From contig NC_042997.1 in NCBI RefSeq assembly GCF_006345805.1, positions 35,526,001-35,590,000 of the forward strand: a DNA stretch of 64,000 nt, in the 5' to 3' direction. The position numbers and the translations under genes are program-made. This DNA is from Octopus sinensis. Taxonomy: Eukaryota. The notes under the pieces were generated by a model. That model was not told the DNA's origin, made no database searches, and was given only the letters and a program-made list of their open reading frames with translations. Below are positions 2,607 to 59,731 of this stretch, piece by piece (position 1 is the stretch's first letter; each line of letters starts with the position of its first letter).

Positions 2607-3298
2607 TCATAATGAAGGGTGAAATTAATTAATTTGGAATAATTATCAATTACACCAAGTAGTCTTCGGCATGTAAAAGCCTCATTCGAGGAAAATTTAA
2701 GTAATACTAAGCAATAAGGGTTTAGCAACGAATTGCCTTACCACAATACCGAATTTAGAAATGCAGTCAAAGAGTTATAGCTATTTCTTCTACTAAAAAG
2801 GGAGATCTCAGTAAAAACAGCCAAACGTGTAGATGACCACAGCATCTTGTTTGGCTACACGCGGGTGGGAAGGGGCTGGTGACACAATCTTTTCACTCAC
2901 ACTTGAATTTGTGATACTAGTTGCGGATTCTGGCTCGCTCTGATACTGAGTTGAGTTGGTGCCGCTTCTAGTATCTCAAAATTCAATATATAATCATTTA
3001 TGATTATAGTATTCTACGCTGAAGAGAAAAGAAGTTTGGTAAGGTAGAATTATTTAATATTTAATTCTTATGCTTTCTAAAAACTTGATTTCGAAACGTG
3101 CGTCCGTAGATAACTTAAAATTGTATGATAGATTGCCGTCAATTCATTCTCTCTTACCTGTTTGTGTCTGCCTTCCAATTGCTGTTTTTTACTGAGATCT
3201 CCCTTTTTAGTAGAAGAAATAGCTATAACTCTTTGACTGCTATTTCTAAATTCGGTATGTGGTAAGGCAATTCGTTGCTAACCCTTATTGCTTAGTAT
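2607..3298. mobile_element. Penelope-like pseudo-LTR / non-autonomous element with a ~118-bp inverted repeat and a hammerhead motif
   Basis: 2704-2821 is the near-perfect reverse complement of 3181-3298. Flanked on both sides by (TA)n and contains the hammerhead motif at 3013-3110. Inverted partial duplications with hammerheads are typical of Penelope-like elements. Confidence 0.65.
3013..3110 (+). ncRNA. Type I hammerhead ribozyme (canonical core)
   Basis: Stem I tctacg(3013-18)/cgtaga(3105-10) pairs perfectly; core CTGAAGA 3019-25; long stem II gaaa...tttc; GAAA 3093-96; short stem III cgtgcg; GUC cleavage triplet ending at 3104. Confidence 0.8.
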
Positions 3299-3824
3299 AT
3301 ATATATGTATAATAATATATATATACTATGTTATTAATATATATATATATATAATATATATACACGCGTTTTTATATATGTATATATCGTACATTTATGA
3401 CCTGGACGGTACAGGCCTTTTTCAATGGACGAGTGGCAATATGTGCAGGTCTAACCAATTGAAAGCACGCAATAAGTCAGGTCAACTGTACTACACACCA
3501 CGCAAGTCTGCGACGGCGTTGAATGTTCTTTTAATAGCACAGACGGAAAGCCAAAAGAACCATTCACCATAAGGAAGCACAAAGAGACCGCAGTCATCTG
3601 GCATAATGTAGCAATCACAGTATATAAACGCATGTATGTATGCGTGTATGTGTGTGTGTGTTTTGGTGTGCATGTGTGTGTGTGTGTATGTGTGTTTCTG
3701 TCGTCTGTCTGTTCCTTAATGTTACCTGGCAATCGGTAAAATAGGTACTGATTGATTTTTATTCCATTCAAACATTGAATGACTAAACCTACAATAACAA
3801 AAACAAGCAATGCAAAGACAAATT

Positions 3825-3861
<37 letters not shown>

Positions 3862-3870
3862 ATGTATATG

Positions 3871-3909
<39 letters not shown>

Positions 3910-4091
3910 TGTATATATGTATATAACGTCAAGTATACTAGTCATATCAATATGGCTAACCACTAGGGGTGGGTGTTATTGTAGCTTTTTAGCCCCAGGA
4001 GATCATCGTCTCAAGCTAGCTTTAGACGCAATTTCTGTGCCCTTATGATATTTGCAAAGGGTGGTCACCCCTCTCGTAGACATAAGTGATA

Positions 4092-4136
4092 CGCATGGAC
4101 TGCAGTTTCGAGATTATTGTCTCTTGTCAACACACG
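4092..4136 (-). ncRNA. Minimal type I hammerhead ribozyme, U3-A8 variant (minus-strand copy)
   Basis: Exact reverse complement of 4447-4491. Confidence 0.7.
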
Positions 4137-4446
4137 GTAATCACGGGTTTTCGATAAGAGAGACATGTTTGCGCATATCTATTTAATGTTTTTCCCAGTA
4201 ACTACTGTCACTGATTTCGAAAAACGGTCTGAAAGCAATAAAAAATCTCTGAGCGAGATGTAAACAGTAAGCGCTCGACAACGTAAAGTATACTAGCCAT
4301 CTCAACATGGCTAACCACTAGGGGTGGGTGTTACTTTAGCTTTTTAGCCCCGGGAGATCATCGTCTCCAGCTGGCTTTAGACACAATATCTGTGCCCTTA
4401 TGATATTTGCAAAGGGAGGTCTCTCTTATCGAAAACCCGTGATTAC

Positions 4447-4491
4447 CGTGTGTTGACAAGAGACAATAATCTCGAAACTGCAGTCCATGCG
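4447..4491 (+). ncRNA. Minimal type I hammerhead ribozyme, U3-A8 variant
   Basis: cgtgtg TTGACAA gaga-caataa-tctc GAAA ctgcag TC catgcg. Stem I has 6 bp (2 GU), stem II 4 bp, stem III is the palindrome ACTGCAGT, cleavage triplet GUC. The core C3-G8 pair is replaced by U3-A8. Confidence 0.7.
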
Positions 4492-4939
4492 TATCTCTTA
4501 GGTTTAAGAGAGGGTGACCTCCCTTTGCAAATATCATAAGGGCAAATAAATTGTGTCTATATATCACTGTAACACGTAAAGCAACCGTGTATTTCCAAAT
4601 TCGTTTGGCGATGGACTTCGATTTCGGATTTCGACTTCAAATCAACTGGAGTTTAATACCAATGACAGCAATTTTCGTTGGCAAAGTTTATTTGTATTTG
4701 CAGAGAACTGAAGAAATATTTTGCCCGAATATCTAACGCCTACCTACCTACCTACCTACCTACCTACCTACCTACCTACCTACCTACCTACCTACATACC
4801 TACCTAAATACCTACATACATACATACATACATACATACACACATAGACATATATGTGTGTCTATATGGGCTGGTGTATTTGTGTGTGAATATATATATA
4901 TATATTACACCGTTCATACGTATACATGTCATGTATATG

Positions 4940-49479: not shown

Positions 49480-50110
49480 CACCCGTCTCACCGTTTCCCG
49501 TCTCCCGCTTCCCTTCACCTACCACCACACCACCCAGCATCTCCAACGCACAATTCTTCGAGCCTTCCGAAGACTCCAGTCCGACCGTTCCTCTACGCAT
49601 ATCTTCCCTAAACGACCCGTCCCCTCCTTCAAACGATCCCACAACCTACGAGGCCGCTTGGTTCACAGTTCCTTCCCTAACCCAACATAACAACACGGCT
49701 AGTTCCCCTTTTTCCTGTCCACGCTGCTGCACTTGCCCCCTACCATTCCAACACCGGCACCCATCTCTCCTCACCGACACCCATCATCGACCCTCTCACA
49801 TCAACGACTCCTTCACCAGCACTTCTAGCAATGTCATCTACCGCATCCCCTGGTCTCTGTCCTTCTCTATAAATCGGTCAAACAGGACGCCTCATGGGTG
49901 ACCGGTCAATGGAACACCTCTGAAACATCCGACTTGGCAATGACACCCCGATCTCGCGTCATTTCCGCTCTACCGGTCACTATTTGCAACATCTGCCTGT
50001 GTTCGGATTGTCCTTGCATAGGGGCCATCCAGACTGCCGTCTTCAAAGTGAACAAGGATTAATATTCTCTCTACGCTCCTTTGTGCCACATGGGATTAAC
50101 TCTCTCCTCT
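49480..50110 (+). mobile_element. Penelope-like element 3' fragment (GIY-YIG)
   Basis: CPRCCTC, DSFTSTSSNVIYRI, IGQTGR, EHL, SRHF, EQGLIFSLRSFVPHGIN. Confidence 0.8.
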
Positions 50111-56379: not shown

Positions 56380-58770
56380 AAACTTAATTCCCGACGTATA
56401 AAAACCAAACCAGCCAATCCCACTCCATGGCACCCATTTGACAACATAAATTTCCACAAAGCGGACTGGGGAACAATCAGAAAGGATCTGTCTTCCAACG
56501 ACTGGTCTTTTACTCTCAATTCCCCTCATATTGAGACCGCGTGGCAGCACTTTGAAACCATTGTCACCGACACATGCTCTAAACACGCTCCCAGAAATCT
56601 ACTAACACAAACAGAAACCGGCTCCCTAAAAAGAAAAAAACACTCATCAGGCGCATCAAAAGACTCAACAAAAAAATCAACCAATTAAAATATTCCCACA
56701 CGCACATCCACATTCAACAACAATGAAAAGACTAGAGCTGGAAAAACTTCATCTGCAGACTAACATGAAAACCTCCATTGAAAATCAAAGAGCTGTGGAG
56801 GAACAATGGGTAATCAAAAACATCAAACAGAACCCAAAAGTGTTCTATTCTTATGCAAATAAGCATAGAACCACTGTCTCACCTATTGGGCCATTGATTG
56901 ATGAAAACGGCATTCCCCAACACGATGCTAAAGAAATGGCAGAAATACTGCAGAAACAATATTGCTCTGTCTTCAGTGTTCCCACTGATATTGATGTGAG
57001 GGAAACGAACGAAGCTGACTCCCAACACAAAATCGCAGACATAACCTTCACTGCCACCGACATCGTAGCAGCAATAAATGAGGTCAAACATTACTCCGCT
57101 GTAGGCCCTGATAGATTTCCCGCCAGTCTCCTGAAGGAATGTAGATATCAACTTGCAGTCCCTCTGACCAACCTCTGGAGAAACTCGTTAGACGCAGGTT
57201 ATATACCGCAAAAGTTTCTATCCCAGTCGGTCATCCCGGTTTTCAAACAGGGAAACAGATCCCTCGCAGTCAACTATCGCCCAATCTCACTCACCTCCCA
57301 CATCATTAAAGTGTTTGAAAGAGTGTTAAGATAAAGGATAGCTGACTTCCTGGAGACCCACAAACTCCTAAATTCAAATCAACATGGCTTTCGCTGTGGC
57401 AGGGACTGTCTAACACAGCTCTTACACCACATTGAAGATGTACTCAAAGCCTTGGGAACAGGTTCGAACTCTGACGTCATATACCTTGACTTCAGTAAAG
57501 CGTTCGACAGGGTAGACCATAACATCCTACTCTCAAAATTGGCAAATGTTGGAATCCGTGGAAAAGTTCTACACTGGATTCAGTATTTCCTAGCGAATAG
57601 AACACAACATGTTTAGTTGATGGAGTCCACTCAAACCCAGCAAAAGTCACCAGCGGTGTTCCAGGGAACTGTTTTGGGTCCGCTACTCTTCATAATTTAT
57701 GTAATCGACCTTTCCAGTGTCGTACATCACTGCAAAGTGAAAATATTCGCTGATGACACTAAGCTCCAGCAAATCGTCAATGAAGAAGCAGACCGAACTC
57801 AACTCCAGTCTGACCTATATGCTGTGAGTCAATGGGCAGACAGAAACAAAATGCAACTGAATGAGGGAAAATTTGAGCTGATGCATTTTGGAAGAAATTC
57901 CTCACTAAAACAACCATACTCTCTTCCTTCAGGGGAACCGCTCACAGCCTCAAACAATATCAGAAACCTGGGTGTAATTGTTGATGACGATCTCAGTTGG
58001 AGTGCACACATCAACAAGAAGGTCGATACAGCTCGTAGGATGAGTTCCTGGATCTTAAGAACTTTCCGGTCCAGAGAACAAGGTGTCATCATACCACTTT
58101 TTTCATCCTTTGTACGGCCACACCTTGAATACTGCTGCCCACTGTGGTCTCCTCACACAAGACAAAACATCTCCAGAATTGAGTCACCCCAGAGGGCTCT
58201 CACTAAACAAATTGAAGGCATGCCTGCTCTCGACTATTGGGATCGCCTTAAAGCCTTGAAACTTTACTACCTCCAGCGTCGCCGTGAGCGGTACATCATT
58301 TGTACGATGTGGAAAATATACCGCCAACTTTGCCCAAACGACCTAAACATTAGCTTCAAGGTTCATCCGAGACTTGGACCACGGGCTATACGTCCCCTGC
58401 CAAATTCAAGATCACAACATACATGTACACTGCAACATAATTTCTTTTCCTCAACAGGCCCTGCCCTATTTAACATTGTCCCGAGGGAGATCAAAGAGGA
58501 AAAGGATCCCATCAACTTCAAACAGAGTCTGGATAGATTCCTTCAAAGAATACCAGACAAGCCACCCATAATTGGATACAACTCACCCAACAAGAACTCA
58601 CTACTTGAACAAAACTGGATACAACTCACCCAACAAGAACTCACTACTTGAACAAAACTTGACTTAAACAGGATTCGAATAATCCTATCAGGTGGTGCTA
58701 TTAAGTTAGACATGGCCTGGACCAATCTCTGGTCGAAACATATCTAAGTTTTATCTAAGTTTTAAGTTTT
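56380..58770 (+). mobile_element. 5'-truncated CR1-clade LINE, relatively young; ORF2 RT with few lesions
   Basis: ORFs 56723-57334 and 57617-58651 plus the intervening frame: NYRPISLTS, QHGFR, IYLDFSKAFDRVDH, QGTVLGPLLF, IFADDTKL, RPHLEYC, YWDRLKALKL. Stop at 57332 and frameshifts near 57615/57660. 3' stem-loop and (TTTTATCTAAG)-like tail. Inserted in (TA)n. Confidence 0.92.
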
Positions 58771-58928: not shown

Positions 58929-59236
58929 TTAGTCTAAGGATCTAGTGGTAGTGGGATTTGTGGTGGATGCATTCAAAAGGGCTTTATATTTTGTGATGAA
59001 TGACATTTTACTAATGCGCTGACTACAGGTTGTATTGTCCTGATTTGATAGAGGGGAACATTCTGAAGCTGGGTTGTTTTTATTGGCGCAACTATCGATG
59101 TGTTCGGTGAATACTATTTTTCTGTATTCCCGAATTTTAATTTGGGATCTATGTTGAGCCATCCTTTGACGAAGACTGTTTTTGGTTTCGCCTATGTATT
59201 GCTCTCGACACGCAAAGCAGGTTAATACGTATATTA
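58929..59236 (-). mobile_element. Penelope-like GIY-YIG fragment
   Basis: Minus translation IIYVLTCFACREQYIGETKNSLRQRMAQHRSQIK...EHIDSCA. Confidence 0.85.
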
Positions 59237-59731
59237 TACAACATCTAGGTCATATATATATGATGGAGTGTTATGTGTGTGTCTGTATATATGTACATAT
59301 ACGTATAAATGTATACGTGTATATTGTGTACGCTTGTATCCCAGCGTCGCTTGAGACCCCGTGTTCGTGTTTTTACGTCTCTGTGTCTTTCGTTTCAATA
59401 AAGGTGACCGATAGATTCCTAAGAACCAGGCTCGATTGGTTCCACTAAAATATTTCATGGTACCTCCAACATGGCCGCAGTCTAAGGACTGAAACAAGTA
59501 CACGAGAAAAGAAAGAATATTGATGTACTCTTATGGAAAAGAGATTCATTCACCAATGATATTTACATACAGCAGTGATAATTGTTCATTTATTTATTAT
59601 GTGCAAAGTACTTATTCAGCAGGTTAGAATTTTCTGGTTTGACACTTTTTATTGCAGCGAAAGAAATAACTGAAACACCTTCATAATTAATATCGTTGTT
59701 GTTATTGTTGGTATCGTCGTCGTCGCCGTCG

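What the first reader, a model, noticed from the sequence alone, without database searches (positions are those of the whole stretch)
3925..4559. Retrozyme-like 355-nt repeat carrying a hammerhead ribozyme with a compensated U3-A8 core, present on both strands
Seen: a 355-nt period (3925-4066 repeated at 4280-4421), then an inverted copy (4419-4559) joined through a GTC microhomology. Both orientations carry the identical 45-nt motif cgtgtg-TTGACAA-gaga/tctc-GAAA-ctgcag-TC-catgcg, while flanking parts of the copies have diverged. Known: the hammerhead core requires a 3-8 Watson-Crick pair (usually C3-G8); metazoan non-LTR retrozymes are short tandem repeats with type I hammerheads that yield circular RNAs and are thought to use Penelope machinery. 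Inference: the double change U3/A8 looks like covariation rather than decay, so this may be a small non-coding self-cleaving retroelement family that CUGANGA-based searches would miss. Four Penelope GIY-YIG relics in the window indicate candidate helper elements exist in this genome.
Basis: partly seen in the sequence, partly recalled or inferred. Interest (0 to 1): 0.75.

Follow-up and report, generated by a model that had tools for sequence, protein, structure and literature searches.

The report
Retrozyme with a shifting ribozyme core
This is one worn copy of a protein-free jumping element, present in well over a thousand ribozyme-bearing copies in this animal genome, that carries a predicted self-cutting RNA and is likely pasted in by Penelope-type enzymes; it belongs to a known kind, but its subfamilies have spread with four different versions of one key ribozyme base pair.

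Summary
Observation confirmed. The 355-nt period, the inverted arm and two identical type I hammerhead motifs (U3-A8) are there. The element is a non-LTR retrozyme: a dispersed, non-coding, self-paired unit of about 355 nt. Compensatory changes hold the hammerhead stems and a palindromic loop 3 (predicted dimer). Insertions carry a Penelope footprint: 51 of 65 head-to-head insertions pair one short and one long fixed 3' end about 48 nt apart, with 12-13-bp target duplications. No Penelope ORF is fused to the unit.

Natural U3-A8 is already in print. In this genome position 8 is not tied to U3: 413 U3-A8, 332 U3-G8 and 7 C3 copies among close subfamilies, while younger relatives spread with C3-A8 and canonical C3-G8. 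The pair walks through all four pyrimidine-purine states. I found no paper describing that walk or this footprint in retrozymes.

The window copy has one ribozyme per strand and cannot cut out a monomer by itself. Cleavage, circles and the helper element are untested. The scan noted similar elements before in other genomes and a 362-363-nt family in this one.

The parts
3925..4279 (-). One full 355-nt period of the element. 3925 is the family's 'short' 3' end and abuts a TA microsatellite.
4280..4421 (-). 5'-truncated upstream part of a second period (unit 214-355), forming a partial tandem
4419..4559 (+). Inverted arm (unit about 116-257), head-to-head with the other arm. It stops about 145 nt before the usual 'long' end, likely a later deletion or an atypical start.
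4419..4421 (.). GTC microhomology at the inversion junction. The two joined unit positions (about 116 and 214) lie on opposite arms of the predicted long stem I.
4447..4491 (+). Type I hammerhead motif: core U3-A8 at 4453/4458, stem II 4460-4473, GAAA 4474-4477, palindromic loop 3 CTGCAG 4478-4483, predicted cut after 4485
4092..4136 (-). Identical hammerhead motif in the full period; predicted cut between 4098 and 4097
4419..4520 (+). Extended stem I (rod) around the ribozyme, with compensatory changes across subfamilies; worn in this copy (z -1.3)
4231..4279 (-). 'Tail' segment (unit 1-49) between the two fixed 3' ends of the family. It is the best-conserved non-ribozyme part (82-89% to subfamilies that are about 65% alike overall) and the likely RT recognition and start region.
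3818..3924 (.). TA microsatellite, likely the target site; a TATAT remnant follows the other arm at 4560-4564

Best explanation
The stretch is a decayed head-to-head insertion of a non-coding 355-nt repeat of the non-LTR retrozyme type, whose RNA is predicted to cut itself through a dimeric hammerhead, likely closes into a circle, and is likely copied back into the genome by a Penelope-type reverse transcriptase/endonuclease. Shown: dispersed copies, partial tandems, two fixed 3' ends, 12-13-bp target duplications, conserved and covarying ribozyme stems, no fused ORF. Inferred cycle: a source locus with two or more tandem units is transcribed; two hammerheads pair through the palindromic loop 3 and release a monomer, which is ligated; the Penelope protein makes a staggered cut of about 12 nt in AT-rich or TA-repeat DNA and primes cDNA on both target strands, once from the short and once from the long start site; it reads across the ribozyme site for 0.2 to more than 3 units; the two cDNAs join through a few complementary bases. 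The 3-8 core pair is kept as pyrimidine-purine but changes in single steps (U-A, U-G, C-A, C-G), and each state was amplified. The window copy has one ribozyme per strand and cannot release a monomer on its own.
For: Copy number: 2,302 first-look candidates, 40 scored; 413+332+7 exact ribozyme matches for close subfamilies and 543 more under a wider pattern, a few from other families; all reversed-pattern controls 0. Structure: in 143 aligned copies the 14 stem I/II/III and loop-3 pairs are 94-99% paired, with double changes at four pairs (148-184, 145-187, 160-167, loop-3 177-178: CTGCAG to CTATAG). Across 42 distinct sequences 93.1% of cells pair and 15 of 29 pairs change on both sides; 0 of 500 shuffles reach this, and slid registers give 21-49%. 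Loop 3 is a perfect palindrome in 8 of 10 subfamily examples; in 3 of these (CCGG, CTAG types plus L275 make 4 with a 4-nt loop 3) it is too short to fold as a monomer. Circular monomers fold at z -2.9 to -7.2 in 10 of 12 copies, and the sense strand is more stable in 11 of 12. Footprint: 51 of 65 inverted insertions are long+short, 1 long+long, 0 short+short, 13 with an atypical end; among 42 non-TA targets 26 have 12-13-bp duplications. In young subfamilies 19 of 22 are long+short (counted from the table). The two arms agree in core and stem II type in 36 of 40 arm pairs. This geometry is described as unique to PLEs (PMC11167929, PMC8557442, PMC3846280). Intact 784-aa RT+GIY-YIG PLE ORFs exist in the genome.
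Against: No cleavage, circle or transcript of this locus is shown. The window copy folds no better than shuffles (z -1.5 circular; z -1.3 for the ribozyme region); L007 also fails (z -0.6). The helper is not identified: the young Neptune-like PLE shares the TA target, a U3-A8 hammerhead and a two-end tail, but has no sequence similarity to the unit, and its tail is 34 nt against about 48. Core invariance is not significant on its own (11 invariant columns against 21% variable columns elsewhere, about p 0.07 by my arithmetic), and many loci were picked with patterns that fix core letters. Two of the four double changes sit at CpG sites. U3-G8 and C3-A8 would be expected to weaken the core (recalled; the key paper, PMID 17666711, could not be read), yet those subfamilies spread, which also fits a dispensable ribozyme. 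Published in vitro work on a PLE found cleavage unnecessary for insertion (PMC11167929), and 8 of 9 Xenopus retrozyme dimers did not cleave (bioRxiv 2026.07.22.740005). The covariation shuffle ignores relatedness.
Confidence: 0.68

Rival explanations
1. Same element and same Penelope carrier, but the template is an uncleaved tandem transcript. The hammerhead acts slowly or mainly as a structural or dimerisation signal, which is why wobble and mismatch 3-8 pairs are tolerated.
For: 332 U3-G8 copies, many also with a G10.1-U11.1 wobble; a young C3-A8 subfamily, 97-99% alike between loci. Arms run through the cut site and 5' ends do not pile up there (1 of 150 starts in unit bin 180-199; sample biased to ribozyme-bearing copies). 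Uncleaved RNA was the main substrate for the anole PLE (PMC11167929).
Against: The other core letters show no subfamily-level change in 144-154 aligned copies; stems and the loop-3 palindrome covary; position 3 stays a pyrimidine and position 8 a purine in 99 of the first 100 matches of two patterns that left both free or in all 100; one young lineage carries canonical C3-G8. Many insertions come from loci too short to give long tandem transcripts (inference).
Confidence: 0.22
2. The unit is only the pseudo-LTR or 3' stub of an autonomous Penelope element.
For: Tail, inversion and target duplication are PLE traits; U3-A8 hammerheads occur in PLE pLTRs (PMC4209133, and the L158 element here). 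Only one PLE family was used as protein query.
Against: The unit closes on itself in tandems of up to 4 or more periods. tblastn finds no PLE ORF in 88 loci or the enlarged set; 1 of 27 and 3 of 55 further loci hold a PLE fragment nearby, and the one I read (L243) is a separate insertion across a TA tract. Tandem copies have no long open frame.
Confidence: 0.07
3. A neutral satellite or SINE relic in which U3 and A8 are chance decay of a dead ribozyme.
For: The window copy is worn (long branch; weak fold); 7-8 is a CpG in G8 copies, so G to A is a likely change.
Against: U3 is fixed in 745 of 752 matches of the close subfamilies. States map on lineages (14 changes against 55 for shuffled labels). 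Non-CpG compensations exist in stem II and loop 3.
Confidence: 0.03

Closest known systems
Metazoan non-LTR retrozymes (Cervera and de la Pena 2020, PMC7229834: read parts 2-3 of 6 and passages; Li, Clavereau, Pollet 2026, bioRxiv 10.64898/2026.07.22.740005: read parts 1-3 of 5, supplements closed)
   Same: Unit of about 350 nt (mussel 350-390), GC under 50%, type I hammerhead with weak palindromic helix III, self-paired monomer, no ORF, target duplications longer than 4 bp, PLEs in the same genome.
   Different: Core mostly U3-A8 or U3-G8 instead of C3-G8. Copies are mostly dispersed partial tandems and head-to-head inversions with a long/short end rule; a word search of PMC7229834 finds no 'inverted'. 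No homology to a PLE pLTR was found here, unlike 24 of 57 Xenopus families. Circles and cleavage are not shown here.
U3-A8 minimal hammerheads of Cercyon PLEs in Schistosoma mansoni (PMC4209133: read parts 1-2 of 4) and natural U3-A8 covariants (Perreault 2011, PMC3088659: passages)
   Same: The same U3-A8 core change; link to Penelope elements; palindromic loop 3.
   Different: Here the ribozyme has canonical proportions (6-bp stem I with bulge, 4-bp stem II, 6-nt loop 2) and sits in a non-coding unit; U3-G8, C3-A8 and C3-G8 subfamilies coexist.
EN+ Penelope-like elements and their non-autonomous derivatives (Frangieh 2024, PMC11167929: read parts 1-2 of 4; Craig 2021, PMC8557442 and Arkhipova 2013, PMC3846280: passages)
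   Same: Partial tandems, an inverted 5'-truncated arm, a tail on one end only, two internal RT start sites, AT-rich or TA targets, 8-13-bp duplications.
   Different: No ORF; tail about 48 nt against 30-40; the start sites lie about 172 and 220 nt downstream of the ribozyme cut in a non-coding unit.

Membership tests
Non-LTR retrozyme | Short (150-450 nt) non-coding unit in tandem or dispersed copies | tested here: met
   Periods of 340-360 nt; tandems up to 4 or more units; no long frame
Non-LTR retrozyme | Type I hammerhead in each unit | tested here: met
   Descriptor hits and covariation; Rfam models do not detect it
Non-LTR retrozyme | Highly self-paired monomer | tested here: met
   z -2.9 to -7.2 in 10 of 12 monomers; not met by the window copy or L007
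Non-LTR retrozyme | Target duplication longer than 4 bp, no LTR organisation | tested here: met
   12-13 bp in 26 of 42 non-TA inverted insertions; PBS and PPT were not searched for separately
Non-LTR retrozyme | Self-cleavage and circular RNA in vivo | not testable with these tools
   Only assembled contigs of runs whose RNA nature is a guess were available
Non-LTR retrozyme | This locus is an active copy (two hammerheads on one strand) | tested here: not met
   One motif per strand; other loci of the family meet it
Hammerhead ribozyme | Watson-Crick pair between positions 3 and 8 | tested here: inconclusive
   Met by the window copy (U-A); not met by 332 U3-G8 copies or the C3-A8 subfamily
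Autonomous Penelope-like element | RT plus GIY-YIG ORF between pLTRs | tested here: not met
   (one PLE family as query)
PLE-mobilised non-autonomous element | Inverted arm, tail on one end, two fixed 3' ends | tested here: met
   51 of 65 and 19 of 22; the window's own right end is atypical
PLE-mobilised non-autonomous element | Sequence homology to the pLTR of a helper PLE | tested here: inconclusive
   None to the one young family examined; other PLE families among 11,656 candidates were not examined

The most novel reading that the evidence does not exclude
One retrozyme lineage has walked the hammerhead's 3-8 catalytic pair through all four pyrimidine-purine states (U-A, U-G, U-A again, then C-A and C-G), and each state cleaves well enough, as a dimer or with the Penelope protein as chaperone, to drive a burst of transposition. 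Every mirror-image insertion records one Penelope enzyme complex copying a circular RNA from two fixed start sites onto both strands of a 12-nt staggered cut. This would be a natural allelic series for tuning ribozyme rate and a 355-nt minimal substrate for Penelope integration.
Probability: 0.3. Interest if true: 0.7.

Novelty: new variant of a known kind. Interest (0 to 1): 0.46.

Why it matters
How animal retrozymes move, and what the hammerhead does in Penelope elements, are open questions; the published case for a Penelope carrier rests on co-occurrence and pLTR homology. Here the insertion scars give direct genomic support and define two start sites and a stagger that can be tested with a 355-nt RNA. 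The four amplified core states give natural constructs to ask whether cleavage rate matters for mobility. Practically, C3-G8 descriptors and Rfam miss most copies of this superfamily. The element class and the U3-A8 core are already known, which caps the interest.

Tried and rejected
Rfam scans: only microsatellite-driven miRNA noise and one snoRNA at E 2.9.

Expression: no RNA holder listed. Contigs of four runs guessed to be RNA cover relatives of the unit, and one 375-nt contig goes back 360 nt, but tandem DNA gives the same join and no silent control stretch was laid, so I do not use this as evidence.

Helper search: a Pfam accession I recalled was not in the library; the protein search returned one young Neptune-like family with no similarity to the unit. 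L243 looked like a retrozyme-PLE chimera but the two parts are separated by a TA tract. A canonical-core pattern gave 27 matches, only 2 of them family members; it missed the C3-G8 subfamily because its loop 2 differs.

The idea that inversion junctions generally join base-paired positions of the rod fits the window copy but not the spread of junctions; it was not tested formally. Rooting the tree on the sister family was unreliable, so polarity rests on arm-to-arm identity and nearest-neighbour distance, both biased by how loci were picked. A8 as copy-by-copy CpG decay was rejected because the states follow lineages.

Rows dropped: duplicate or haplotig loci (12, 6); 3 of 46 picks lacked the pattern for alignment A1 (L014, L100, L181); 3 of 148 rows, among them the window's truncated arm; 4 of 15 loci gave no monomer.

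Papers not held and not read: Przybilski and Hammann 2007, Lunse 2017. Either may already cover wobble 3-8 pairs.

Full report
1. The observation. The window holds a partial tandem on the minus strand (4421-4280, then 4279-3925; 130 of 142 identical, spacing 355) and a head-to-head arm on the plus strand (4419-4559), sharing GTC at 4419-4421. Each strand has the same 45-nt type I hammerhead motif; these are the only descriptor hits in 64 kb, and a 26-mer of it occurs twice against none in 100 shuffles. The arms differ at 9 of 142 columns, none in the first 77, so their identity over the motif is weak evidence by itself. Rfam does not see the motif. I found two Penelope endonuclease relics in the window, not four. 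The organism is not given; a 2.7-Gb, TA-microsatellite-rich animal genome suggests an octopus (my guess, untested).

2. The family. The unit has 2,302 first-look candidates, of which 40 were scored. Exact ribozyme patterns give whole-genome counts with zero in reversed controls: 413 U3-A8, 332 U3-G8 and 7 with C3 for the close subfamilies. A wider pattern gives 543 more; the first 100 are 64 U-A, 21 U-G, 8 C-G and 7 C-A, counted by eye and including a few from other families. A pattern for the young lineage with positions 3 and 8 free gives 126; the first 100 are 76 C-G, 14 U-A, 9 C-A and 1 A-A (by eye; it overlaps). Subfamilies range from about 90% to 64% identity with the window unit. A sister family of about 363 nt shares the U3-A8 ribozyme and the architecture.

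3. The ribozyme is under selection at family level. In 143 copies the stem pairs are 94-99% paired, with double changes in stem I (twice, both at CpG sites), stem II and loop 3, where CTGCAG becomes CTATAG and stays palindromic. In 42 distinct sequences chosen across subfamilies, 93.1% of cells pair and 15 of 29 pairs change on both sides; no shuffle of 500 reaches this and slid registers fall to 21-49%. The rows are related and were picked with a core pattern, so this is not a probability and says nothing on core invariance. Loop 3 is a perfect palindrome in 8 of 10 examples and in 4 it is only four letters long, too short for a monomer helix III, which points to dimers as described for metazoan hammerheads (PMC4209133; PMC7229834). 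Circular monomers fold at z -2.9 to -7.2 in 10 of 12 cases; the window copy (-1.5) and L007 (-0.6) do not. The likeness of the stem I bulge and loop 2 to the Schistosoma hammerhead is recalled, not tested.

4. The 3-8 pair. What the genome shows is looser. On a tree of 150 nt downstream of the ribozyme (145 rows), the pair state changes 14 times against 55 for shuffled labels, along a ladder: U-A (window type and kin), U-G, U-A, then branches with U-G, U-A, C-A and C-G (many nodes weak, midpoint root). Arm-to-arm identity within inverted insertions is 95-96% for three window-type loci and mostly 98-100% at the C-A, C-G end, and nearest-locus distances are 0.032 (U-A), 0.020 (U-G), 0.020 (C-G) and 0.013 (C-A). 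So U3-A8 is likely the older state and the canonical core a recent return; this order is inferred and the sampling is biased. All four states are transitions apart, so mutation bias contributes, but the other core letters show no subfamily-level change (weak on its own). Natural U3-A8 is in print: about 1,300 hits tied to Cercyon PLEs (PMC4209133) and several covariants (PMC3088659). A U3-G8 core with an adjacent insertion is mentioned for a halophile ribozyme (PMC7151607, passage). Searches for U3-A8, C3U, U3-G8 and C3-A8 with hammerhead found no paper on amplified wobble cores; two relevant papers were not held.

5. The insertion footprint. Of 65 inverted insertions, 51 pair a short end (about 172 nt after the cut) with a long end (about 220), 1 has two long ends, none two short ends, and 13 have an atypical end, the window copy among them; 26 of 42 non-TA targets show 12-13-bp duplications, 7 none, and 23 insertions lie in TA repeats. 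Junctions mostly overlap by a few bases. In the young subfamilies 19 of 22 follow the rule and about 15 lie in TA tracts (read from the table). The two arms are of the same ribozyme type in 36 of 40 arm pairs. The segment between the two ends is the best-conserved non-ribozyme part. Inverted arms with a tail on one end are the PLE signature (PMC8557442; PMC3846280), and the tail was shown in vitro to lie between two internal RT start sites (PMC11167929). Arms run across the cut site and reach more than three units, so the template was a circle or an uncleaved multimer, not a cut linear monomer. A search for retrozyme with inverted, Penelope and target site duplication listed five papers; the two I checked by word search and PMC7229834 do not describe this footprint for retrozymes.

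6. Helper. No PLE ORF is fused to the unit: no tblastn hit in 88 loci or the enlarged set, and nearby fragments in 1 of 27 and 3 of 55 further loci, with one PLE family as query. The genome has a young PLE family with intact 784-aa RT plus GIY-YIG frames, a CX4CxxC linker (Neptune-like by the description in PMC8557442), an upstream 437-aa frame, TA targets in 5 of 5 insertions read, a 34-nt tail and its own U3-A8 minimal hammerhead with a CCGG loop. It has no sequence similarity to the unit. It is a candidate, not an identified helper.

7. Mechanism and rivals. Best reading (0.68): a retrozyme cycle of tandem transcript, dimer cleavage, circle, and two-strand priming by a Penelope protein. Main rival (0.22): same carrier, uncleaved template, ribozyme slow or structural. 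A pLTR stub (0.07) and neutral decay (0.03) are largely excluded. Cleavage, circles and helper are all untested; sequencing-run data gave nothing usable. The window locus itself has one ribozyme per strand, a truncated arm and a weak fold, and is likely dead.

8. Verdict. A new variant of a known kind. Class and U3-A8 core are published; the long/short footprint and the four-state core series are the additions, and both are directly testable. The scan's earlier notes report similar elements in other genomes and a 362-363-nt family in this one; a look-up by sequence found no note on this unit. One of those notes prompted the wider pattern. Supplements of the 2026 preprint were closed, and those of the other papers were not opened; they may list related families.

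Noticed in passing
L158:605-4206 and L158:527/4893 (G000:C3:57632000-57638500); also L159-L167: Young Neptune-like Penelope family with two overlapping frames (437 aa with no Pfam match, then 784 aa RT + GIY-YIG), TA-repeat targeting, 34-nt tail and a U3-A8 minimal hammerhead in its pLTR. A two-frame layout is unusual for EN+ PLEs (recalled).
   Followed up: partly
L199:1366-1766, L217-L219: Sister non-coding family of about 363 nt with U3-A8 hammerhead, CTAG loop 3, long rod and about 40-nt tail; possibly the 362-363-nt family of earlier scan notes.
   Followed up: partly
L234:1300-1760 (-), L230: A further tandem repeat with a U3-A8 core, stem II GAGC/GCTT type and a CATCGATG palindromic loop; no BLAST similarity to the window unit.
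   Followed up: no
window 2719-2817 and 3186-3284: 99-nt inverted repeat (88%) bounding about 570 nt, MITE-like.
   Followed up: no
window 56630-58651 (+): LINE-type reverse transcriptase relic in two long frames (234 and 344 aa; RVT_1 E 1.9e-8 on the second).
   Followed up: no
window 58929-59249 (-) and about 49830-49990 (+): Two Penelope GIY-YIG endonuclease relics; the first is 63% identical to the young family.
   Followed up: partly
L178-L183 (G000:C29:10820347-10821855), L248-L251, L264/L279: Tandem arrays of 3-4 or more units with intact ribozymes; the kind of locus that could give monomer RNA.
   Followed up: partly
L101-L127: About 25 unrelated canonical-core minimal hammerheads with a CAAUAA-type loop 2, probably from other PLE families.
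   Followed up: no
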